A DNA stretch of 64,000 nucleotides from Bacteroidota bacterium (GTDB taxonomy: Bacteria > Bacteroidota > Bacteroidia > Bacteroidales > FEN-979), in assembly GCA_037128705.1 (NCBI GenBank), contig JBAXVX010000007.1:27617-91616 (forward strand). The letters are read 5' to 3'. The notes under the pieces are model-generated. The model searched no databases, was not told where the DNA came from, and was given only the letters and a program-made list of their open reading frames with translations. The position numbers and the translations under genes are program-made. This document shows positions 1 through 63,573 of the stretch, in pieces (position 1 is the first letter of the stretch; each line of letters begins with the position of its first letter).

Positions 1-19
1 GTGACGCGTGACACGTGAC
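1..19 (+). repeat. Heptamer tandem array (GTGACRC) x ~3, truncated by the window edge. An A-rich tract and solo ATCGT / GTAACAGGG units follow, up to ~49.
   Basis: Read directly: GTGACGC GTGACAC GTGACA, then AAAATAA ATCGTTC ATCAGTAACAGGGTAG. Same unit as the arrays at 3838-3880, 41116-41142 and 59606-59645. Confidence 0.7.
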
Positions 20-67
20 AAAAATAAATCGTTCATCAGTAACAGGGTAGTTTTTTCATAGATTTTT

Positions 68-1849
68 ATGCCGTCGGAAAGGAAAATATACTGGGCGCTG
101 ATCATCCTGCTGATTGTTTCGGCGGTGGTTCGTGGTTTTATTGCCGGCTTTATTGAATTGGGCAACGATGAGGTTTATTACTGGACCTATGCGAAATTTC
201 CCGCGCTCAGCCATTTCGACCATCCCCCCATGGTTGGCTTCGTGATCCAGTTCTTTACCCTGAACCTGTTCCTCGACAGTGAATTCTTCATACGGCTGGC
301 CTCCGTGGTACTGGGAACGCTGAGTACGGGAATGATGTTCCTGATCGGCCGGCAGATTAAAAGCCCGCTCACCGGGTTGTACGCCGCCCTTTTATTTACA
401 GCCTCCTTTTATGGATTCATCCTGAGCGGGATCTTTATTCTCCCCGATACCCCCCAGGTGTTTTTCTGGCTGGTCACGCTTTATTGCCTGATAAAATCAT
501 TGCCTGACCAGGATACAGCGCCGGAGAGCAGGAATTATCTCTTCTTCGCAGGGGTCACCGCCGGCCTGGCCCTTTTATCGAAATATCATTCGGTTTTCCT
601 GATTGCCGGGACCTTTATGTACCTTCTTTTATATAACCGGAGATGGTTCATGGCCAAGGAGACCTACGCCTTTTTCCTGATCATCATCATGCTGTTTCTT
701 CCTGTCATTTTCTGGAACATCGATAATGATTTTATCAGTTTTACCTTTCATGAAAAGAGGATCGGGATTTCCGAATCGGGGTTCCAGCCACTCTACTTTC
801 TCACCGAAGTCACGGGCCAGTTTTTTTATAATAACCCGGTGAATGTGGTAATCATCATTGGCTCGCTGATCGCGCTGATCCGAAGGAAACAGTTCATTGA
901 GGTCTCCTACAAGCGCATCCTGCTGTGGACCAGTGTCCCGCTCATCCTGGTGTTCCTCTCTTTTTCACTTTTCCGCAGCACCCTGCCACACTGGACCGGA
1001 CCGGGTTACCTGGGTCTCATCCTGATCGCAGCGGCCTGGCTGTCAGAACCAAAGATGAATGAATCAAAAATGCGCCTTGTTCCTTTACCGGTAGTCATAT
1101 CCCTGGCGTTCCTGATAACGGTAGCCGTAACCGGGGTCGGACAGATCCGTTTTGGCTGGATCCCGCTCCAGCGAATGAAAATCGATGATGTTTCTCTCGA
1201 CATGTATGGATGGAGGCAACTCGGTACGAAGTTCCAGGCAATGGTAAAATGGGATGAGGAGCACTTTCTTATCGACAAGGGATCGCCGATCATTACCTTC
1301 AGGTGGTTCCCCGCGGCCAATTTTGATTATTACCTGGCTCACAATGACCGTAATCCGGTATATGCCCTCGGGGAGATAGAGCGCATCCATAAGTACCATT
1401 GGATAGATCAGCTGCGCGGAAATCTCAAGAAGGGAAGCGACGCCTATTTTATCGCCCTGAGCGATGACTATGAAGATCCGGTGGCGTTATACGGCAACCT
1501 GTTCGATATGGTCCTTCCATCCGATACCCTGTTCATCACGCGGGGCCGCGACACAGTCCGCAAAGCATTTATTTTCAGGATGGTCGACCTGAAACAGGAC
1601 ATGGTCTTCGGCCGCGATAAATATGCAACCCCCAAAAAACAGGATACATCCGATACCCTTTCCTTTTTTCTTAACCAGATCAGGTCGGACCGCCAGTTTC
1701 TCGATGTCCTTGAAAGGAGATCGGTCAAACTGAAAATGCCCCTCGATGACCTGATCAGGGAAGAGGCTGCCAAGCTGTATGAAGAGTCAAAAGACAAGCT
1801 GGTTTTACCGGATACCCTTAAGGAAAAAGGTGACAAGGTGACAAGGTGA
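68..1849 (+). CDS. Polytopic membrane glycosyltransferase, ArnT/PMT-like (GT-C fold, GT39/GT83-like), with a soluble C-terminal domain
   Basis: 593-aa ORF with ATG start. The N-terminal ~2/3 has many hydrophobic helices and the family-typical N-terminal segment (ELGNDEVYYWTYAKFP..HFDHPPMVGF). The last codons (GDKVTR) and the TGA stop lie inside the GGTGACAR array. Confidence 0.75.
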   Translation: MPSERKIYWALIILLIVSAVVRGFIAGFIELGNDEVYYWTYAKFPALSHFDHPPMVGFVIQFFTLNLFLDSEFFIRLASVVLGTLSTGMMFLIGRQIKSPLTGLYAALLFTASFYGFILSGIFILPDTPQVFFWLVTLYCLIKSLPDQDTAPESRNYLFFAGVTAGLALLSKYHSVFLIAGTFMYLLLYNRRWFMAKETYAFFLIIIMLFLPVIFWNIDNDFISFTFHEKRIGISESGFQPLYFLTEVTGQFFYNNPVNVVIIIGSLIALIRRKQFIEVSYKRILLWTSVPLILVFLSFSLFRSTLPHWTGPGYLGLILIAAAWLSEPKMNESKMRLVPLPVVISLAFLITVAVTGVGQIRFGWIPLQRMKIDDVSLDMYGWRQLGTKFQAMVKWDEEHFLIDKGSPIITFRWFPAANFDYYLAHNDRNPVYALGEIERIHKYHWIDQLRGNLKKGSDAYFIALSDDYEDPVALYGNLFDMVLPSDTLFITRGRDTVRKAFIFRMVDLKQDMVFGRDKYATPKKQDTSDTLSFFLNQIRSDRQFLDVLERRSVKLKMPLDDLIREEAAKLYEESKDKLVLPDTLKEKGDKVTR

Positions 1850-1995
1850 CAGGGTGACAAGGTAACAGGGTGACAAAGTAATGGAGTAATGGAGTAATGG
1901 AGTAATGAAATCGAATATCGTAAATCGTAGATCGTAAATCGTATATCGTAAATTAATCAATCATTCGTCATTCGTCATTCGCCATTCGTCATTCA
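1829..1995. repeat. Composite tandem-repeat block of four arrays: (GGTRACAR)x6 at 1829-1876, (AGTAATGG)x4 at 1877-1908, (ATCGTAN)x~5-6 at 1909-1958, (TCATTCG)x~5 at 1959-1995
   Basis: Read directly and unit boundaries counted base by base. The block spans the whole gap between two convergent stop codons (TGA 1847-1849 on +, TGA 1993-1995 on -). Confidence 0.95.
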
Positions 1996-3390
1996 TTTGG
2001 GTCCTGTCATCTTTTTAGGATCAACGATGCGGGTGAATTCTTCATCGGTCAGCAAACCAAGTTCCAGGGTGGCTTCACGCAGGGTTTTATGCTCCTTGTG
2101 TGCTTTCTTGGCTATTTTGGCAGAATTGTCATAGCCGATGTGGGGATTGAGTGCCGTAACCAGCATCAGGGAATTTTCGAGATTTTTGTTGATGGCCGCC
2201 ATGTTCGGTTCGATGCCGATGGCGCAGTTGTCGTTGAATGAAACGCAGGCATCGCCGAGCAGCCTGGCCGACATCAGGAGGTTGGAGATGAGCAGGGGCT
2301 TGAAAACATTGAGCTGGAAATGGCCGCTGATACCGCCGATGTTGATGGCCACATCGTTGCCGAGTACCTGGGCGCATACCATGGTCATTGCTTCGGGTTG
2401 GGTGGGATTCACCTTGCCCGGCATGATGCTGGAGCCGGGTTCATTTTCGGGAAGCATGAGTTCGCCGATGCCGCAACGGGGACCGGAGGCCAGCAGGCGG
2501 ATGTTGGAGGCAATGTGCATCAGGCTTACCGCCAGCGTTTTCAGGGCGCCGGAGGTTTCAACCATCGCATCGTGAGCCGACAGCGATTCAAACTTATTGT
2601 CAGCGGTGATGAAGGGCAGCCCGGTGAGTTCGGCTATTTTTTTAGCCACCAGCACATCATAGCCTTTGGGTGCATTCAGCCCGGTGCCTACAGCTGTGCC
2701 GCCCAGCGCCAGTTCCGACAAATGGGGGAGGGTGTTTTTGAGTGCTTTCAGGCCGTGATCAAGCTGGGAGACATATCCTGAAAATTCCTGCCCCAGGGTG
2801 AGCGGGGTGGCATCCATGAGGTGGGTACGACCTGTTTTCACGATCTCCTTAAACTCTTCGGATTTTTTTGCCAGGGTGCCCTTCAGCAGATCCACACCCG
2901 GTATGGTATTGCCGGTAACCATCTTGTATGCGGCAATGCTCATGGCTGCGGGGAAGGTGTCGTTCGAAGACTGCGATTTGTTTACATCATCGTTGGGGTG
3001 GATCACCGTTTTGCCTTCGCCGCCCAGTTCACCGCCGTTCAGGACGTGGGCCCGGTTGGCGATCACCTCGTTGAGGTTCATGTTGGTTTGCGTTCCCGAA
3101 CCGGTTTGCCAGATCACCAGCGGGAACTGGTCATCCAGCTTGCCATCCAGGATCTCATCACAAACTTTCACAATCAGGGTCATCTTCTCTGAAGGCAACA
3201 CGCCAAGGTCGGCATTCACCATGGCTGCCGCCTTTTTTAGGATGGCCATTCCGCGGATCACCTCTTTGGGCATGGATCCTGGCTCACCAATTTTGAAGTT
3301 GGTTAGTGAACGCTGGGTTTGGGCTCCCCAGTACTTATCCATAGCAACCTCAATGGGCCCCATGGTGTCTTTTTCGATGCGTGTTTTCAT
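1993..3390 (-). CDS. fumC: Fumarate hydratase, class II
   Basis: 465 aa with ATG start. Carries the class II fumarase/aspartase signature [13 protein letters not shown] and matches the family over its full length. Confidence 0.95.
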
Positions 3391-3442
3391 ATGTATATGG
3401 TTTTTAATATGATATCGGGATGAAGGAGGTCATTTTCAGATA

Positions 3443-3787
3443 TTATTTCAGTAGAGATTCAATGTTTTCAACCGGGTCGCCTACCACCGCCCTGTACCTG
3501 CCCTCAACAATCGGGCGTTGAAGGAGCCTGGGATTCTGAAGGATGATCTTCACCCATTCATGATCCTCGAAATTCTTCCCCTTCAGGTTTTGCTTAAAAT
3601 ATTCCTCCTGCGTGCGTACCATCTCCGCCGGCTTCCTGTTCAGTTTTATCAGCAGGATCTCCATCTCCTTTTCCGTCAGCGGATTCCTGATGTATTCAAC
3701 CACTTCGAACGCATTTCCGGAATCCTTCAGGAATTGCAGCCCGGCCCTGGATTTTTTGCACTGGGGATGGTGGTAGATCTTTAACAT
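3443..3787 (-). CDS. ArsC/Spx-family protein (YffB-like, CxxS type)
   Basis: 114 aa. The N-terminus MLKIYHHPQCKKSRAGLQFL matches the ArsC/Spx/YffB fold family. The ATG directly abuts the repeat array. Confidence 0.8.
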   Translation of the reverse strand: MLKIYHHPQCKKSRAGLQFLKDSGNAFEVVEYIRNPLTEKEMEILLIKLNRKPAEMVRTQEEYFKQNLKGKNFEDHEWVKIILQNPRLLQRPIVEGRYRAVVGDPVENIESLLK

Positions 3788-3880
3788 ATTTACGATATAC
3801 GATTTACGATATACGATTTACGATATACGATTTTTTTCGTCACGTGTCACGCGTCACGTGTCACGCGTCACGCGTCACGC
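3788..3880 (-). repeat. Composite array read on the minus strand: (GTGACRC)x6 at 3838-3880, A7 at 3831-3837, (TCGTAWA)x6 at 3789-3830
   Basis: Read directly. It fills the 97-nt spacer between the prfB stop (3883-3885) and the ArsC-family start (3787). Confidence 0.95.
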
Positions 3881-3882
3881 TT

Positions 3883-4972
3883 TTATGCATTACCATATTC
3901 CATCAGGTAGGATTTGATAAACGCGGAGAGGTCGCCATCGAGCACAGCCTGGGTATCCGACGTTTCCTGTCCCGTGCGCAGATCCTTGACCATTTTATAG
4001 GGATGCAGCACATAACTGCGGATCTGGCTGCCCCACTCGATCTTTTTCTTCCCGCTCTCGATCACTGCGATCTTCTCACGCTGCTTTCGGAGTTCGATTT
4101 CATACAACTGCGATTTCAGCAGTTTCAGCGCTTTTTCGCGGTTTTGTCCCTGTGAGCGGGTCTCCTGGCATTCGATGATGATCCCCGAAGGTTCGTGTTT
4201 CAAGCGCACCGCGGTCTCCACCTTGTTTACATTTTGTCCGCCCGGACCGCTGCTGCGAAAGGTGTCCCAGCTGATCTCGGCCGGGTTGATGTCGATCACA
4301 ATGTCGTCGTTGATGATGGGATAGACATAGACTGACGCGAAGGAGGTATGCCGTTTGTGGTTGGAATCGAATGGGGAGAGCCGCACCAGCCGGTGCACGC
4401 CATTCTCGCCCTTGAGGTAGCCATAGGCATAGTCGCCGTCAAACTCCAGGGTCACCGATTTGATCCCCGCCACATCCCCCTCCTGGAAATCCACCTCGGC
4501 GATTTTGAAGCGGCTCCGCTCACCGTACCGGATATACATGCGCATGAGCATCTGAGCCCAATCCTGGCTTTCGGTGCCTCCCGCCCCGGAATTGATCTGG
4601 ACGATGGCGCCGAGCCGGTCTTCAACACCGCTCAGCATGTTGCGGAATTCCAACTCTTCTATAAGCGCCAGTGTTTCGTTGTAGTGATTTTCAAGCTCCT
4701 CTTCAGTTCCTTCACCCTGGATGTGGAATTCCCACATCACCATCAGGTCTTCCTGCGTTGAAAGCGCTTTTAAAAAGGCATCCGTCCAGAGTTTTTTATC
4801 ACGGATGGCACGCTGGGCTGTTTCCGCGGCTTTCGGATTATTCCAGAAATCGGGAGCCTGTGAAAGTTGTTCTTCTTCTGCTATCTGGGAAAGTTTCTTG
4901 TCGATGTCAAAGGTACCTCCTCAAGACGTCGAGCCTGGTCTTCAGGTCTCTCAGTTGGTCTTGTGCTATCAT
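3883..4972 (-). CDS. prfB: Peptide chain release factor 2, expressed through a programmed +1 frameshift
   Basis: Frame-1 leader ATG 4972 reads [21 protein letters not shown] then TGA (4907-4909). After a +1 shift it continues [25 protein letters not shown]... into the 3883..4743 ORF. SPF (RLSPFDS) and GGQ ([10 protein letters not shown]) motifs are present. Confidence 0.93.
4906..4921 (-). promoter_or_regulatory. RF2 autoregulatory +1 frameshift site: AGGAGG (SD-like), 3 nt, then CTT TGA C
   Basis: The minus strand reads TTG AGG AGG TAC CTT TGA C, which is the canonical RF2 recoding cassette. Confidence 0.9.
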
Positions 4973-4973
4973 G

Positions 4974-5468
4974 TCAGATTTTAAGTTCTTTTATTATTTC
5001 GGCAGCCAGGTCAAATTCAAAACCCTTGCCAATTACAAAAGTGATAATTTTTTCGCGGATGTTCAAGTTTTTTCCCGGTTTTATTTCTGACTTTTTTTTC
5101 AGAACCAGTTCGCGCACGGTTTTCCGGTAATCTTCCGGGCTGATCTCCAGCAGGGCCGACCGGATGATGATGTCAGGAATCTTGCGTCCCTTCAGCTCGT
5201 AACCGATCTTTAACCGGCCCCATTTGTTGATCCGGAATTTACCCCTGACGAAGGTTCGGGCAAAACGTTCATCATCAATAAAACCTTCATCTTTCAGCGA
5301 TTTCATCAGTGTGCTGATCCTGCCCCCGGGAACCTTCCATTCAGCCAGCTTCTTCTCTGCATCCCACGCACACCGCTCCTGGTAAGCGCAATAGCGGCTG
5401 ATCCTTTCATAGATGCCTGCAGGATCGGGAGCGTGCTTCATCGCGGTATTGTCCTTATCTTTTTTCAT
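4974..5468 (-). CDS. recX: RecX-family regulatory protein
   Basis: 164 aa. Has the RecX-like N-terminus (ISRYCAYQERCAWDAEKKL) and a helical-repeat body. The stop lies 1 nt from the prfB start. Confidence 0.8.
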   Translation of the reverse strand: MKKDKDNTAMKHAPDPAGIYERISRYCAYQERCAWDAEKKLAEWKVPGGRISTLMKSLKDEGFIDDERFARTFVRGKFRINKWGRLKIGYELKGRKIPDIIIRSALLEISPEDYRKTVRELVLKKKSEIKPGKNLNIREKIITFVIGKGFEFDLAAEIIKELKI

Positions 5469-5538
5469 CCCCTGTAAAGCTGAAAGAACCGTTTTTTTGG
5501 TTTCTGTTTGAAAAGTAAAGATAATATTTACTTCTCAC

Positions 5539-5580
5539 GAAAAAAAGAAAATGCCCCCGTAGCACTTAGGTCACGGGGGC
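5539..5580 (-). terminator. Rho-independent terminator downstream of the YceI gene
   Basis: On the minus strand, GCCCCCGT (12-nt loop) ACGGGGGC is followed by ATTTTCTTTTTTT. A second 7-bp stem (AGCCTGT/ACAGGCT) lies just upstream at about 5604-5625. Confidence 0.75.
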
Positions 5581-5659
5581 AAAGTCATTTAGCTACGGAT
5601 GCGCAGCCTGTTAACGGGGACAGGCTCTTGTATCAGAGGGGCTGCCAGGCGGTATGCTA

Positions 5660-6256
5660 TTATTTAGCCTTGATAAATTCCGCATTGATGTTGATTGCAA
5701 CTTCAGGGCCTACGACGGCGCCTCCGGTTTCAAGCAGCGAATTCCATTTTAGGCCGTAATCAAGACGGTTGATGGTGGTGGATGCCCTGAAGCCGGCCCG
5801 GGTGTTTCCGTAGCCATCTTTCGCGGTGCCGCCATAGGTTACGGCAAACTTTACCCGTTTTGTTACCTCGCGGATGGTCAGGTTGCCTGTAAGTTCATAT
5901 TTGTTGCCCGAGAGTTTCTTCATCGAGATACTTTTGAAGGTCATGCTGGGAAACTTTTCAGCGTTGAAGAAATCATCTGACTTCAGGTGCTTGTCACGCT
6001 GTTCATTGTCCGTATTGATGCTGGCAATATCCACACTGAATTCGATGCTTGCATCGGTAAAATCGGGTTTTGCAGCAGTCAGGGTCCCTGTAAATGATTT
6101 GAAATTCCCCTCCACTTCCGAGATGACCATGTGGGTTACGGTGAATTTGACATTTGAGTGGGAGTTGTCTACGGCCCATTTGGTTTGAGCTTCACTTTTG
6201 CCGAAGATCATCATGGTGATCACCAGGGCGAATAAAAATTTAACTGTGTTTTTCAT
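5660..6256 (-). CDS. YceI-family periplasmic (polyisoprenoid-binding) protein
   Basis: 198 aa with a signal peptide. Has the YceI-type segment WAVDNSHSNVKFTVTHMVISEVEGNFKSFTG. Confidence 0.85.
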   Translation of the reverse strand: MKNTVKFLFALVITMMIFGKSEAQTKWAVDNSHSNVKFTVTHMVISEVEGNFKSFTGTLTAAKPDFTDASIEFSVDIASINTDNEQRDKHLKSDDFFNAEKFPSMTFKSISMKKLSGNKYELTGNLTIREVTKRVKFAVTYGGTAKDGYGNTRAGFRASTTINRLDYGLKWNSLLETGGAVVGPEVAININAEFIKAK

Positions 6257-11974: not shown

Positions 11975-13108
11975 ATGAAAAAATATTTGTTCATCCTGTT
12001 AGTAGGGGCAATCCTCGCTTCATGTACAGGAAATAAGGATCAGTTTACCATCAAGGGAAAGGTCAACGGCGTTGATACAGGAATGATCTACCTGCAAAAA
12101 TTCGATGTTGACCAATGGGTCAAAGTCGATTCATCAAAACTTGAAAAAGGAGCATTTTCATTCAAAGGATCCGCTGCTCTTCCGGAGATGTGGCACATCG
12201 TCATGGATGAAAAGCAAATCATACTTCCCGTGTTTGTTGAAAATGCCGGAATCAAGGTAGAGATCTATGTTGACAGCCTTGATAAATCGTTGATCACAGG
12301 ATCTCCCTCCCATGATATTTACCAGAAGTATCTCACCCTGAATGAGTCCGTGTATAAAAAGATGGATGAGAACACCATGGAGTGGAAGAAAGCCAGAGAT
12401 GCCAATGATTCGGCAACCATGAAACGCACCGATTCGGTTTCGAATGAGCTGGATAAGGAGATGAAAAAGCAGCTCCAGGATTTTGCCAGGGCCAACAACA
12501 AGACTGTTGTTTCTCCCTACCTGGTTATACGCAATAGCTGGCAATTTGAGCTCCCCGACCTGGAAGAACTACTTGCCGCCATGGATACCAGTCTGAATGG
12601 TTCCCAATATGTGCTGGCTCTGAAGAAACGCATTGAAATCCTGAAGCGTGTTGAAATTGGGCAGATGGCTCCTGATTTTACCTTGAATGATACCACCGGG
12701 GCCCCTGTTGCGCTGTCATCCCTGAAAGGGAGGGTGCTGCTGGTTGATTTCTGGGCATCGTGGTGCAGTCCCTGCCGGGCTGAGAATCCCAACGTGGTGA
12801 AGGCTTACCAGGCTTATCACAAGAAGGGATTTGATGTGCTGGGCTGTTCGTTCGACCAGAACCGGGAAAAATGGCTGAAAGCTTTAAGGAATGATAAACT
12901 TACCTGGACCCATGTTTCAGACCTGAAGGGATGGGGCAATGCTGCAGGCAAACTTTATGGCATCAATTCCATCCCGGCAAATGTCCTGCTCGACAAGGAT
13001 CAGAAGATCATCGGCCGTAACCTTCGCGGTGCGGATCTGATGAAGAAGCTGGAAGAGATTTTCGGACCGGCGGTTCCTGAGAAAAAGGGAAAAAAGGCAA
13101 CCAGGTAA
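11975..13108 (+). CDS. TlpA-family thiol:disulfide oxidoreductase lipoprotein (DUF4369 N-domain + thioredoxin fold)
   Basis: 377 aa. Has a lipobox (ILASC) and the redox motif WASWCSPC. The stop TAA lies in the first GGTAACAG unit. Confidence 0.88.
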   Translation: MKKYLFILLVGAILASCTGNKDQFTIKGKVNGVDTGMIYLQKFDVDQWVKVDSSKLEKGAFSFKGSAALPEMWHIVMDEKQIILPVFVENAGIKVEIYVDSLDKSLITGSPSHDIYQKYLTLNESVYKKMDENTMEWKKARDANDSATMKRTDSVSNELDKEMKKQLQDFARANNKTVVSPYLVIRNSWQFELPDLEELLAAMDTSLNGSQYVLALKKRIEILKRVEIGQMAPDFTLNDTTGAPVALSSLKGRVLLVDFWASWCSPCRAENPNVVKAYQAYHKKGFDVLGCSFDQNREKWLKALRNDKLTWTHVSDLKGWGNAAGKLYGINSIPANVLLDKDQKIIGRNLRGADLMKKLEEIFGPAVPEKKGKKATR

Positions 13109-13156
13109 CAGGGTAACAGGGTAACAGGGTAACAGGGTAACAGGGTAACAGGGTGA
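13104..13156 (+). repeat. Octamer tandem array (GGTAACAG)x6 + GGTGA
   Basis: Read directly, with units counted 13104-13151. It contains the upstream stop (13106-13108) and runs into the downstream GTG/ATG start (13153/13156). Confidence 0.95.
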
Positions 13157-14645: not shown

Positions 14646-15230
14646 ATGTACGATTATATCCAAGGAAGGTTGGTTGAAAAGAACCCGGCCTATGCGGTTG
14701 TTGATGTCGGTGGTATCGGGTACCTGCTGAATATTTCCATCCACACCTATTCCATGCTGAGGGAAGATGAAAAATGCATCCTTTACACCCACCTGGTGGT
14801 TCGTGAAGATGACATGTTGCTGTACGGTTTTGCCGACCAGGCTGAGCGTGAACTTTTCCGACAGCTCATCAGCGTATCGGGAGTCGGCGTCAATACGGCA
14901 CGCATCATTTTATCCTCGCTTTCACCCGAAGAGGTGATCAGGGCCATTGCCGAAGGGGATGCAGTTCAGTTACAGCGAATTAAAGGAATCGGGGCAAAGA
15001 CTGCCCAAAGGATTATCATCGACTTAAAAGATAAGGTTCCACGGGAGTTGATTCCCTATGAAAAATCCGGATTTTTGCACAATACAAAGAAGGAAGAAGC
15101 GTTATCTGGATTGATCATTCTGGGCTTCCCAAAGATGCTTGCTGAGAAAGCATTGATTAAAATCATCGAAACGGAAGGAACAGGCTTGACAGTGGAACAG
15201 CTGATCAAACACGCCCTCAAGGTTTTGTAG
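14646..15230 (+). CDS. ruvA: Holliday junction branch migration complex subunit RuvA
   Basis: 194 aa. MYDYIQGRLVEK..VDVGGIGY.. plus HhH motifs (ISVSGVGVNTA, IKGIGAKTAQRI). Confidence 0.93.
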   Translation: MYDYIQGRLVEKNPAYAVVDVGGIGYLLNISIHTYSMLREDEKCILYTHLVVREDDMLLYGFADQAERELFRQLISVSGVGVNTARIILSSLSPEEVIRAIAEGDAVQLQRIKGIGAKTAQRIIIDLKDKVPRELIPYEKSGFLHNTKKEEALSGLIILGFPKMLAEKALIKIIETEGTGLTVEQLIKHALKVL

Positions 15231-41107: not shown

Positions 41108-41142
41108 CGAATCGCGTGACACGTGACGCGTGACGCGTGACC
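41108..41142 (+). repeat. Solo CGAATCG unit + heptamer array (GTGACRC)x4 (41116-41142)
   Basis: Read directly. It begins immediately after the sufB TGA (41105-41107). Confidence 0.9.
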
Positions 41143-52888: not shown

Positions 52889-52935
52889 GTCACGCGTCAC
52901 GCTTTTCCGTCACGCGTCACGCTTCATGTGTCACG
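52889..52935 (-). repeat. Interrupted heptamer array: plus strand reads (GTCACGC)x2 ttttcc (GTCACGC)x2 ttcatgt GTCACG, then T7
   Basis: Read directly. This is the reverse orientation of the GTGACRC family. The 16-nt super-unit GTCACGCGTCACGCTT occurs twice, 20 nt apart. Confidence 0.9.
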
Positions 52936-52943
52936 TTTTTTTA

Positions 52944-52951
52944 TACCTTTG
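52944..52951 (+). promoter_or_regulatory. -7 promoter box TACCTTTG
   Basis: Exact TAnnTTTG match, ending 21 nt upstream of the dxs ATG at 52973. Confidence 0.5.
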
Positions 52952-57795: not shown

Positions 57796-59600
<1,805 letters not shown>

Positions 59601-59616
<16 letters not shown>

Positions 59617-59685
59617 CAAAAAAATCGTGACACGTGACGCGTGACAAAAAATATTGTAAATCGTAAATCATACATCGTAAATTTT
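59601..59685 (+). repeat. Composite array: [ATC (GTGACRC)1-2 GTGAC A6-7] x2 (59603-59651) followed by (ATYGTAA)-type units x4 (59653-59681)
   Basis: Read directly. It contains the permease stop (59614-59616) and ends 12 nt before the tauE-family ATG. Confidence 0.92.
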
Positions 59686-59696
59686 AAAAGAGTCTC

Positions 59697-60479
59697 ATGT
59701 CAGTCACCACAATCATCGTAATCATCTTAGCCGGCATCCTGGTCGGCTTTATCAACACCCTTTCAGGAGGAGGTTCGGTGATCAGCCTTTCCCTCCTGTT
59801 GCTCCTGGGACTCCCGGCAAACATTGCAAACGGAACAAACCGGATCAGTATTTTTTTCCAAACCCTCTCCTCGGTTGGCAGTTTTACCCGCCAGAAAATG
59901 TTTACGGATCTCCGCCCTGTGTGGCTGGCCATCCCGGCAACCATTGGGGCCATCCTTGGGGCTTATGTGGCTGTTGATGTAAATACCCGGGTTATTGAAA
60001 TCGCCATGGCAACCTCCATGGTCATCATGTTGTTCTTCCTGTTTTACAAACCTGATAAGTGGCTCAAAGAAAACCCCGGACTTCTCTCGGGCCCTGTCAG
60101 GTGGTGGCAACTGGTCATCTTTTTCATGGTTGGTTTTTATGGCGGATTTATCCAGGTGGGGGTTGGTTATTTTTTATTGATGGCGCTGGTATTGGGAACC
60201 GGGTATGACCTGGTGAAGGCCAATGCGGTAAAAAACCTGATCGTCTTTTTCTACGCAATATTTGCCTTGCTTGTCTTTATGATTGATGGAAAGGTGAATT
60301 ACCTTTATGGCATCATCCTTTCGGTGGGAAGTATGATCGGTGCTCTGGTCGCCTCCTACCTGGCTGTAAAAAAGGGAGGCGGATTTATCCGTGCGGTCAT
60401 ATTGTTGTCAGTGGTATTGACAATTCTGCAACTTTCAGGATTGATTAACTTTACCACCCTGCTGAAATACATATTGTAA
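59697..60479 (+). CDS. TauE/SafE-family anion exporter (sulfite exporter family membrane protein)
   Basis: 260 aa, about 8 TM helices, with glycine-rich TM segments typical of TauE/SafE. Confidence 0.82.
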   Translation: MSVTTIIVIILAGILVGFINTLSGGGSVISLSLLLLLGLPANIANGTNRISIFFQTLSSVGSFTRQKMFTDLRPVWLAIPATIGAILGAYVAVDVNTRVIEIAMATSMVIMLFFLFYKPDKWLKENPGLLSGPVRWWQLVIFFMVGFYGGFIQVGVGYFLLMALVLGTGYDLVKANAVKNLIVFFYAIFALLVFMIDGKVNYLYGIILSVGSMIGALVASYLAVKKGGGFIRAVILLSVVLTILQLSGLINFTTLLKYIL

Positions 60480-63524: not shown

Positions 63525-63573
63525 TAATTCGTCATTCGCAATTCATCATTTGTCATTCGTCATTCGTCATTCC
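63525..63573 (-). repeat. Heptamer tandem array (TCATTCG)x7 on plus, which reads (CGAATGA)x7 on the gene-sense minus strand
   Basis: Read directly, with units counted. It begins 1 nt after the LOG-family stop (63575-63577), and 10 nt separate it from the kinase ATG (63514). Confidence 0.92.

What the first reader, a model, noticed from the sequence alone, without database searches (positions are those of the whole stretch)
59601..59685. Duplicated super-unit differing by exactly one heptamer, with a repeat-encoded permease C-terminus
The module ATC-(GTGACRC)n-GTGAC-A6-7 occurs twice in tandem. The first copy has one full heptamer and the second has two, which is direct in-locus evidence for unit gain or loss. 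Four ATYGTAA-type units follow. The permease ends ..VNRDA-TGA inside the first module. The last unit runs into TAAATTTT, a near -7 box, 12 nt before the tauE-family ATG.
Basis: seen in the sequence. Interest (0 to 1): 0.55.

Follow-up and report, generated by a model that had tools for sequence, protein, structure and literature searches.

The report
Polymorphic mosaic heptamer-repeat spacer between genes
The 80-base spacer between a permease gene and a tauE-family gene in an uncultured lake Bacteroidales bacterium consists almost wholly of 7-base tandem repeats, and it is one copy of a genome-wide family of repeat cassettes with a fixed block order whose function is unknown.

Summary
Window 59604-59680 reads TCGTGAC GCGTGAC | A7 | TCGTGAC ACGTGAC GCGTGAC | A6T | ATTGTAA ATCGTAA ATCATAC ATCGTAA, all in one 7-nt register. 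The permease ends ..VNRDA-TGA inside the second unit.

Unit gain and loss is now shown directly. Eight sequences carrying the identical TauE protein (the window and seven contigs) show five alleles. These differ by 7 nt, by whole 35-nt super-units, or by one ATCGTAA. In strains 99.6-99.9% identical, this array holds the only indel in about 10 kb.

The locus is not unique. The same units recur in 7 of 33 intergenic regions of the window and at 10 or more unlinked loci of related genomes. They always appear in one order: (GGTAACAG)n, (AGTAATGR)n, (GTGACRC)n, A7, (TCGTAWA)n, then the start codon. They are usually sense to the flanking genes. The forward strand has stops in all three frames; the reverse strand has none.

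I found no RNA structure, terminator, Rfam family or convincing promoter box. Neighbouring arrays are invariant across close strains, so this is slippage on an evolutionary time scale, not a demonstrated phase switch.

It belongs to the known but unexplained class of intergenic heptamer repeats. The ordered mosaic grammar appears to be undescribed.

The parts
57796..59616 (+). APC-family amino-acid permease ORF. Gene callers use the ATG at 57862, giving 584 aa. The last codons, ..AAT CGT GAC GCG TGA (N R D A stop), lie in the repeat.
   Evidence: PF13520, PF00324 and PF13906, the last ending at residue 595 of 606. One search gives the gene calls.
59604..59617 (+). GTGACRC-block module 1: TCGTGAC GCGTGAC. 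It contains the permease stop TGA at 59614-59616.
   Evidence: This module has 4 units in alleles L001, L006 and L007.
59618..59624 (+). A7 unit. It is exactly one heptamer long and separates the modules.
   Evidence: A-runs separate GTGACRC blocks at other loci too.
59625..59645 (+). GTGACRC-block module 2: TCGTGAC ACGTGAC GCGTGAC.
   Evidence: There is one more GCGTGAC in L003 and L005, and the whole A7+module is duplicated in L001, L006 and L007.
59646..59652 (+). A6T unit: the junction between the GTGACRC block and the TCGTAWA-type block.
   Evidence: The junction GTGAC-A7-TCGT recurs at 10 unlinked loci.
59653..59680 (+). ATCGTAA-type block: ATTGTAA ATCGTAA ATCATAC ATCGTAA.
   Evidence: L002 and L004 differ by one ATCGTAA unit.
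59681..59696 (+). Start-proximal tail ATTTTAAAAGAGTCTC. The tail is invariant in the close alleles.
59697..60479 (+). TauE/SafE-family membrane protein ORF, the downstream gene.
   Evidence: PF01925, E 1.4e-40. The N-terminus is conserved in L008.
1..67 (+). Sister cassette, cut by the window start: GTGACGC GTGACAC GTGAC A5 T AAATCGT .., lying before the ATG at 68.
1827..1994 (+). Sister cassette between convergent genes: (AAGGTGAC)6 (AGTAATGG)4 (AWATCGT)6 (TCATTCG)5. The upstream ORF ends inside it.
   Evidence: L100 has +21 nt here.
3788..3882 (-). Sister cassette between prfB and an ArsC-family gene: (CGTGACR)7 A7 (TCGTAWA)6 T ATG.
   Evidence: It is identical in 8 contigs. Its ortholog in a 92%-identical relative (L091) has different copy numbers.
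13104..13152 (+). Sister array (GGTAACAG)6. It fills the whole spacer, from the stop inside the first unit to the start.
41113..41141 (+). Sister array (CRCGTGA)4, starting 6 nt after a stop codon.
52889..52935 (-). Sister GTGACGC array in the opposite orientation to its flanking genes. It is interrupted, and is followed by T7 and a good TACCTTTG box.
   Evidence: It is identical in 4 contigs.
63527..63572 (+). Sister array (ATTCGTC)6.6 between two minus-strand genes.
   Evidence: There is a 28-nt (4-unit) difference in the 95% lineage.

Best explanation
The spacer is one copy of a genome-wide family of mosaic short-tandem-repeat cassettes. These cassettes form the short spacers at gene ends in this uncultured Bacteroidales lineage.

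**Shown**
- Its length changes by gain or loss of 7-nt units and of 28-35-nt super-units (an A-run plus 3-4 NCGTGAC units). This is what slipped-strand mispairing or unequal recombination in a repeat produces.
- These changes are the only indels between near-identical strains.
- The same unit vocabulary, block order and orientation recur at many unlinked loci.

**Inferred**
- The cassettes descend from, or are kept alike by copying between, a common composite array. The block junctions are conserved and the units are mutationally related: GGTGACA ~ CGTGACA, CGTAAAT ~ CGTAATT ~ CGTCATT.
- Their orientation is shaped by translation. The strand that is sense to the genes has stop codons in all three frames, so a neighbouring ORF that runs into the cassette ends within a few codons whatever the copy number. 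The stop-free reverse strand is the only orientation seen inside an ORF.
- At this locus the copy-number changes leave both the permease stop and the tauE start region untouched. The array therefore acts as a length-variable intercistronic spacer with at most a quantitative effect on tauE. It is not an on/off switch.
For: - **Allelic series.** Eight sequences encoding the identical TauE protein (the window and seven contigs) give five alleles, with spacers of 80, 87, 136, 78 and 85 nt. Alleles recur in independent assemblies: L001, L006 and L007 come from three JGI samples, L003 and L005 from two assemblers, and the 78-nt spacing appears in three more records.
- **Indels confined to arrays.**
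  - Against L003 and L005 (99.78% identity) the single gap in 10.3 kb is the 7-nt unit here.
  - Against the 95.4% lineage, the multiple alignment places every indel in this array or the 63527 array, apart from one 1-nt indel.
  - L002 and L004 are 99.70% identical; their 4 gaps sum to 21 nt, matching the 7-nt and 14-nt array differences.
- **Non-randomness.** 15 matches against 0.01 expected.
- **Shared grammar.** A scan for the junction ACGCGTGACAAAAAAATCGT found 11 stretches. Ten are unlinked gene-end loci with the same block order. In all, 18 of 18 neighbouring same-strand block pairs follow one order, and 13-14 of these are independent of the search pattern.
- **Orientation.** About 21 of 26 cassettes between co-directional genes are sense. 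They start at or over the upstream stop and end 0-25 nt before the downstream ATG.
- **Stop asymmetry.** Forward units have stops in 3 of 3 frames, except TCGTATA; the reverse strands of the four ordered block types have stops in 0 of 3. In-ORF copies, in reverse orientation, are translated in L093. The stop-rich strand is also the sense strand in other species, 16 against 4.
- **No competing signal.** There is no RNA or DNA fold (z about 0), no Rfam hit and no plus-strand terminator.
Against: - Slippage alone cannot explain why unrelated loci share the same blocks in the same order with the same junctions. A copying or dispersal step has to be assumed, and it was not observed.
- The strong orientation bias and the position of the TCGTAWA block next to start codons would also fit a function in the mRNA.
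- The metagenome loci were selected with a pattern that already contained the GTGAC-A7-TCGT junction.
- Gene calls in the loci come from a simple ORF heuristic.
- No read-level data were available, so within-population heterogeneity is untested.
Confidence: 0.55

Rival explanations
1. The cassette is a functional cis-element in the transcript or in single-stranded DNA. The repeated 7-8-nt units are binding sites for a protein with OB-fold, S1, cold-shock or RRM-type domains, at roughly one unit per domain or monomer. This sets translation initiation or mRNA stability of the downstream gene in a phylum that lacks Shine-Dalgarno pairing. Copy number tunes the output.
For: - Block order and sense orientation are fixed at unlinked loci.
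- The AU-rich TCGTAWA block abuts the start codon, 0-25 nt away, at most loci.
- The same was reported for TAACTGA repeats, which lie in forward orientation just upstream of start codons. S1, Csp and CsrA were proposed as binders (PMC4679880).
- Deleting heptamer repeats changed recO reporter output in Nostoc (bioRxiv 10.1101/2022.06.06.494920).
- The vocabulary is retained in a 92%-identical relative.
Against: - The orthologous permease-tauE spacer carries entirely different units, or none, in related genera.
- Cassettes are often partial.
- Some arrays lie antisense or between convergent genes.
- The same units are tolerated inside an ORF.
- No binder is known and nothing here tests binding.
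Confidence: 0.22
2. The cassette is a small non-autonomous mobile element, or a target of site-specific copying, that inserts at gene ends. The internal repeats are secondary expansions.
For: - Junctions are conserved at unlinked loci: AGTAAAAT-CGTGAC and GTGAC-A7-TCGT.
- Upstream ORFs of unrelated proteins end in similar cassette-encoded tails..KEKGDKVTR* at 1849 and ..EKKGKKATR* at 13108.
- Cassette units occur inside an ORF as insertions relative to homologues.
Against: - No terminal inverted repeats, target duplications or associated transposase were seen.
- The cassette usually is the entire spacer, rather than an insert within one.
- Partial cassettes are common.
- Presence and absence at orthologous sites was seen only between genera.
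Confidence: 0.13
3. The array is a classical contingency locus. Copy number changes promoter spacing, or the reading frame, and switches tauE or the permease on and off at high frequency.
For: - It is a tandem short repeat with proven length polymorphism next to two membrane-transport genes.
- Two assemblies break inside tauE close to the array.
Against: - The permease stop falls in the second unit in every allele, and the 45 nt before the ATG are constant in the close alleles.
- There is no credible -33/-7 promoter around the variable part.
- Neighbouring arrays are invariant in 8 and 4 contigs. The variation therefore accrues at about the pace of 0.1-0.3% sequence divergence.
Confidence: 0.07
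4. The length differences are assembly artefacts of short-read metagenomes.
For: - Repeats can collapse or expand in de Bruijn graphs.
- Some contigs end near the array.
Against: - The arrays are at most about 140 nt, shorter than the k=141 used for several contigs.
- The same alleles recur in independent samples and with different assemblers.
- The differences are clean multiples of 7.
Confidence: 0.03

Closest known systems
Intergenic heptanucleotide tandem repeats of bacteria. Examples are the long SSRs with 5-11-nt units of Mrazek et al. 2007 (as summarised in PMC4679880 and PMC4692102), the STRR sequences of heterocystous cyanobacteria, and the survey by Mori et al. 2019 (PMC6344855).
   Same: - The units are 7 nt, tandem and intergenic.
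- Several unit families occur per genome and recur at many loci.
- Copy number differs between relatives.
- The function is unknown: 'no clear clue', in the words of PMC6344855.
   Different: - The host is an uncultured Bacteroidales, and the units are new. None of the unit strings occurs in the searchable literature.
- The blocks of different units follow one fixed order and orientation, with A7 separators in register. I did not find this described.
TAACTGA direct repeats of marine Beggiatoaceae, cyanobacteria and five Bacteroidetes (MacGregor 2015, PMC4679880)
   Same: - The repeats are heptamers in forward orientation directly upstream of start codons.
- The unit contains stop triplets.
- Some Bacteroidetes spacers hold several different heptamer arrays side by side.
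   Different: - The unit sequence is different.
- Here the cassettes are anchored at the upstream stop as well as at the start.
- Here there is direct strain-level polymorphism data.
GGGAATC / GGGGAYT repeats of Xanthomonas and Nostoc (Rehm et al. 2015, PMC4692102)
   Same: - The repeats are intergenic heptamers lying close to the end of the upstream ORF, mostly between co-directional genes.
- Length varies between close relatives at conserved positions.
   Different: - Those units are G-rich and form quadruplexes.
- Here only the (GGGTAACA)n block has such a motif. The focal GTGACRC and ATCGTAA units do not.
Simple-sequence contingency loci of Haemophilus and Neisseria
   Same: The mutational mechanism is the same: slipped-strand mispairing in a tandem short repeat.
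   Different: - No frame or promoter-spacing consequence is visible here.
- The variation is seen between strains rather than as a demonstrated rapid switch.
BIMEs (mosaic REP clusters) of enterobacteria. This comparison rests on my own knowledge of the family.
   Same: - They are mosaic intergenic elements built from a few motif types in a set order.
- They sit at gene ends and within operons.
- The number of motif copies varies.
   Different: - BIME units are palindromic hairpins of about 35 nt in alternating orientation.
- Here the units are 7-8 nt, direct, and without predicted structure.

Membership tests
Intergenic heptanucleotide SSR / STRR-like repeats | Head-to-tail repeats of a 7-nt unit | tested here: met
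   Identity at lag 7 is 0.49 in this spacer, against about 0.2-0.3 at other lags.
Intergenic heptanucleotide SSR / STRR-like repeats | Located outside coding sequence | tested here: met
   The array lies between the permease stop and the tauE start. Only the first 1.5 units overlap the ORF end.
Intergenic heptanucleotide SSR / STRR-like repeats | The same unit families are dispersed over many loci of the genome | tested here: met
   There are 15 GTGACRCGTGAC matches at 5 loci in 64 kb, and 10 further loci in related genomes.
Intergenic heptanucleotide SSR / STRR-like repeats | Copy number differs between related strains | tested here: met
   Five alleles. The indels are multiples of 7.
STRR in the strict sense (cyanobacterial) | Heterocystous cyanobacterial host and the STRR1-3 unit sequences | tested here: not met
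   The host is Bacteroidales-like and uses TAnnTTTG promoter boxes. The units are different.
Phase-variable contingency locus | A repeat-number change alters the reading frame or the promoter element spacing of a gene | tested here: not met
   The stop codon and the start-proximal 45 nt are identical in the close alleles. No -33/-7 pair brackets the variable part.
Phase-variable contingency locus | High-frequency reversible length variation within a population | not testable with these tools
   This needs reads or amplicons. The indirect evidence is against it, because sister arrays are invariant in 8 and 4 contigs.
Intrinsic terminator | A G+C-rich hairpin followed by a U-run on the transcribed strand | tested here: not met
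   No plus-strand site was found. There is only a weak 5-pair site on the minus strand, and the fold z-score is 0.05.
Structured RNA family (Rfam) | A match to a curated covariance model | tested here: not met
   There are no gathering-score hits in the window. In the E-value scan of 59500-59800, only chance-level hits lie over or beside the array.
Bacteroidetes sigma-A promoter (-7 box TAnnTTTG) | TAnnTTTG at a typical distance from the start, and conserved in relatives | tested here: not met
   TAAATTTT lacks the G and is 11 nt from the ATG, whereas true boxes lie 9-64 nt (mostly 17-34) away. It reads TAAATAAT in L002 and L004.
REP/BIME or MITE-type dispersed element | Palindromic units or terminal inverted repeats, with defined ends | tested here: not met
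   There is no significant self-complementarity. Cassettes fill whole spacers and are often partial.

The most novel reading that the evidence does not exclude
The ordered, orientation-specific cassettes, (GGTAACAG)n-(AGTAATGR)n-(GTGACRC)n-A7-(TCGTAWA)n, may be a previously undescribed class of intercistronic element in Bacteroidales. In this reading they are spread or homogenised by a dedicated copying process and are read by a nucleic-acid-binding protein with repeated domains. Unit number would then tune the expression of the downstream gene. The same process would occasionally seed peptide-repeat insertions in proteins.
Probability: 0.25. Interest if true: 0.75.

Novelty: new variant of a known kind. 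Interest (0 to 1): 0.52.

Why it matters
Tandem heptamers are the commonest intergenic periodic repeat across prokaryotes, yet their origin and function remain unexplained (PMC6344855).

This lineage offers three things that help with that question:
- A natural allelic series at defined loci, which shows the step sizes of change: 7 nt and 28-35 nt.
- A simple rule tying orientation to stop codons. The forward strand has stops in all three frames and the reverse strand has none, and only the reverse strand is seen inside an ORF.
- A fixed block grammar, which points to copying between loci or to recognition by a factor.

Together these give concrete hypotheses that can be tested with metagenome reads, metatranscriptomes from the same lakes, and two-cistron reporters.

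For annotation, it also explains why unrelated proteins in these genomes end in similar short tails, and why contigs break at such spacers.

Tried and rejected
- **RNA or DNA secondary structure of the spacer.** The z-scores were 0.05 and 0.39. Rejected.
- **Intrinsic terminator.** No plus-strand site was found.
- **Known RNA family.** None.
- **Promoter -7 box.** It is atypical and not conserved.
- **Preference for a type of intergenic region.**
  - In the window, 0 of 7 divergent spacers carry arrays against 7 of 26 others. This is not significant.
  - In 87 loci of other Bacteroidota, arrays occupy about 9% of spacers of every type.
- **A shared GTNA core in units of other species.** It is modestly enriched (0.41 against 0.24 in shuffles), but the test was post hoc and AT-rich patterns score as high. 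I do not rely on it.
- **The 18-nt insert in L002 and L004 as a dispersed small element.** No other copy exists in the sequence held.
- **Viral contigs.** (GTGACGC)3-4 occurs in ten unrelated phage-like contigs of 33-73% G+C, without the cassette grammar. This was uninformative about origin.
- **More alleles through exact-protein look-ups.** The window's permease is not on record. The asparaginase look-up returned only two contigs, both ending inside tauE.
- **Literature.** Full-text searches for the unit strings found nothing relevant.

Full report
**1. The observation**

Window 59597-59699 reads, in one 7-nt register: CGGTAAA | TCGTGAC | GCGTGAC | AAAAAAA | TCGTGAC | ACGTGAC | GCGTGAC | AAAAAAT | ATTGTAA | ATCGTAA | ATCATAC | ATCGTAA | ATTTTAA | AAGAGTC | TC ATG.

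Four ATYGTAA-type units follow.
- ORF 57796-59616 is an APC-family amino-acid permease (PF13520, PF00324, PF13906). It ends ..KPVNRDA with TGA at 59614-59616, inside the second unit.
- The downstream ORF 59697-60479 is a TauE/SafE-family protein.
- TAAATTTT lies at 59678-59685, 11 nt before the ATG.
- The pattern GTGACRCGTGAC occurs 15 times in the window against 0.01 expected from shuffles. TRF lists both sub-arrays.

I add that the A-runs are exactly one unit long, so the whole spacer keeps one heptamer register.

**2. The requested strain comparison**

An exact-protein look-up with TauE returned metagenome contigs from boreal-lake and other samples. Seven of them came with DNA.

| Allele | Sequences | Structure | Spacer |
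|---|---|---|---|
| 1 | window | 2 units, A7, 3 units | 80 nt |
| 2 | L003, L005 | 2 units, A7, 4 units | 87 nt |
| 3 | L001, L006, L007 | 4 units, A7, 4 units, A7, 4 units | 136 nt |
| 4 | L002 | GTGACGC GTAACGC GTGAC, A7, then an ATCGTAA block carrying an 18-nt insert and 2 ATCGTAA units | 78 nt |
| 5 | L004 | as L002, with 3 ATCGTAA units | 85 nt |

The gene spacing of allele 4 also appears in three records that came without DNA.

- Against L003 and L005 (99.78% identity) the only gap in 10.3 kb is the 7-nt unit in this array.
- Against L001, L006 and L007 (99.4-99.9% identity per aligned segment) the only length differences lie in this array.
- Against the 95.4% lineage, all indels in a multiple alignment of about 10.3 kb fall in this array or in the array at 63527, where the difference is 28 nt (4 units). 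The one exception is a 1-nt indel.
- L002 and L004 are 99.70% identical, with 4 gaps totalling 21 nt, which matches the 7-nt and 14-nt array differences.
- The same alleles recur in independent samples and assemblers, and the arrays are shorter than the k-mers used. Assembly artefact is therefore unlikely.

Unit gain and loss, and gain and loss of the whole super-unit, are thus shown.

**3. How unstable the arrays are**

- The sister cassette at 3788-3882 is identical in 8 further contigs. The array at 52889-52935 is identical in 4. The convergent cassette at 1827-1994 differs in one of four contigs, by three units.
- The arrays therefore change on about the time scale of 0.1-0.3% sequence divergence. 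This is not the rate expected of a contingency locus.
- In every close allele the permease stop and the 45 nt before the tauE ATG are unchanged.

**4. The surroundings**

- The organism is an uncultured Bacteroidales or Prolixibacteraceae-like bacterium. The best permease matches are 81% and 79% identical, to MAGs.
- Its genes carry typical TAnnTTTG boxes 9-64 nt (mostly 17-34) before starts.
It has no G, lies 11 nt from the ATG, and reads TAAATAAT in the 95% lineage.
- The spacer has no significant RNA or DNA fold, no plus-strand terminator and no Rfam match.

**5. The locus is one of a family**

Seven of 33 intergenic regions of 25 nt or more in the window show strong period-7 or period-8 structure. 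They are built from a small vocabulary:

- GGTAACAG / AAGGTGAC
- AGTAATGG
- GTGACRC
- TCGTAWA
- CATTCGT

These units are listed.

- A metagenome scan for the junction ACGCGTGACAAAAAAATCGT returned 11 stretches. Ten are gene-end loci with different flanking genes.
- All ten have the same layout: the upstream stop, (GGTAACAG)n, (AGTAATGR)n, AAAATC, (GTGACRC)n, sometimes [A6-7 (NCGTGAC)3-4] repeated up to five times, A7, (TCGTAWA)n, and then the downstream ATG.
- One of them, L091, is the ortholog of window 2425-6017 at 92% identity. The grammar therefore persists between species while the copy numbers differ.
- In a strict parse, 18 of 18 neighbouring same-strand block pairs follow one order. 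Of these, 13-14 are independent of the search pattern.
- About 21 of 26 cassettes between co-directional genes are sense. They begin at or over the upstream stop and end 0-25 nt before the start.

**6. Orientation and translation**

- Every forward unit except TCGTATA gives stop codons in all three frames when repeated. For the four ordered block types the reverse strand gives none; CATTCGT shows the opposite asymmetry.
- Upstream ORFs run a few codons into cassettes. This yields similar tails in unrelated proteins..KEKGDKVTR* at 1849..EKKGKKATR* at 13108, and ..NRDA* here.
- In locus L093, a 905-aa MurF-alanine racemase fusion contains the same units in the stop-free orientation, and they are translated.
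  - HASRVTCHDEDG x3 aligns as an insertion relative to solved alanine racemases.
  - FTIYD-type stretches lie between the Mur ligase domains.
- In other species, the stop-rich strand is the sense strand in 16 arrays against 4.

**7. Wider distribution**

- Among 80 permease loci from other Bacteroidota, about 9% of spacers carry 7- or 8-mer arrays, with no preference for a spacer type.
- The orthologous permease-tauE spacer holds different units in different genera:
  - ATCGTAA x5 in L008
  - TMACTCT in L009
  - GGATGCA in L011
  - AAATAGCG in L044
  - none in L010 or L012
- The position is repeatedly occupied while the units turn over.

**8. Interpretation**

*Shown.* The spacer is a tandem heptamer array that changes by whole units and super-units. 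It is also one copy of a cassette family with a fixed grammar and orientation.

*Inferred.*
- The changes arise by slipped-strand mispairing or unequal recombination.
- The family is kept alike by descent from a composite array or by copying between loci.
- Orientation is constrained by translation.
- At this locus the effect is that of a length-variable intercistronic spacer, not a switch.

*Rivals.* I considered four:
- a protein-binding platform in the mRNA;
- a small mobile element;
- a classical contingency locus;
- an assembly artefact.

The first two are not excluded, and they overlap with the favoured account.

**9. Comparison with the known**

- Intergenic heptamer repeats are documented as the most abundant intergenic periodic repeat in prokaryotes, with no known function (PMC6344855).
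- Specific cases are the TAACTGA repeats, which lie upstream of starts and also occur in some Bacteroidetes (PMC4679880), and the GGGAATC / GGGGAYT repeats close to upstream ORF ends (PMC4692102).
- Heptamer repeats influenced reporter output in Nostoc.
- The present units do not occur in the searchable literature, and I found no description of a fixed multi-block order.

I therefore class the locus as a member of the known kind of intergenic heptamer repeats, and the ordered mosaic cassette as a new variant of that kind.

**10. Limits**

- Gene calls in the loci are heuristic.
- The metagenome loci were selected through one junction.
- No reads, transcripts or experiments were available.
- The dispersal step and any function remain inferences.

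Noticed in passing
L093 2042-4759 (minus strand): A 905-aa MurF-alanine racemase fusion ORF contains the cassette units in the stop-free orientation, and they are translated. HASRVTCHDEDG x3 has a 36-nt period and is an insertion relative to solved alanine racemases. FTIYDVRFTIY and IYDLRYTIYD lie between the Mur ligase domains.
   Followed up: partly
L002 5943-5965 and L004 5936-5958: An 18-nt insert, GGCTCCACCGAGCTCCGC, sits inside the ATCGTAA block of the 95% lineage. No other copy was found in any sequence held.
   Followed up: partly
L027 9600-9690: A C/G-rich, apparently self-complementary segment of about 80 nt is inserted within a CTGTAACC / CTGAAACC octamer array of about 28 units in a more distant Bacteroidales MAG. 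From memory, this resembles the small dispersed repeats reported within cyanobacterial heptamer arrays.
   Followed up: no
window 13104-13152: (GGGTAACA)6 fills a whole spacer. It is a canonical G-quadruplex motif, G3N5 repeated six times, on the sense strand.
   Followed up: no
window 1815-1849 and 13076-13108: Two unrelated ORFs end in similar cassette-encoded tails, ..KEKGDKVTR* and ..PEKKGKKATR*. An A-run precedes the octamer block in both.
   Followed up: partly
L122 (SESF01023199.1) and L123 (SESB01019236.1), contig ends: Two contigs that carry the window's exact asparaginase end inside tauE. For L122 the end is about 36 nt after the tauE ATG, next to the array. This suggests an assembly break at the repeat or at strain variation.
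   Followed up: no
L001 10520-10600 versus L002 10550-10745 and L004 10550-10735 (beyond the window's right end): An ATTCGTC array upstream of the next gene has about 5 units in the 99% strains, but about 22 units in L002 and about 20 in L004.
   Followed up: partly
L112-L121 (viral contigs): (GTGACGC)3-4 occurs in intergenic regions of ten unrelated phage-like contigs of 33-73% G+C. In several it lies just upstream of a ribosome-binding site on the other strand.
   Followed up: no
window about 4905-4975 (minus strand): The release-factor gene at 3883-4743 is prfB, with the classical programmed +1 frameshift site. A short [24 protein letters not shown], ends at CTT TGA C and is preceded by AGGAGG.
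   Followed up: partly
window 52929-52945: T7 followed by ATACCTTTG. Several promoters in the window show a T-run directly upstream of the TAnnTTTG box, for example before the genes at 14646, 28361 and 48631.
   Followed up: no
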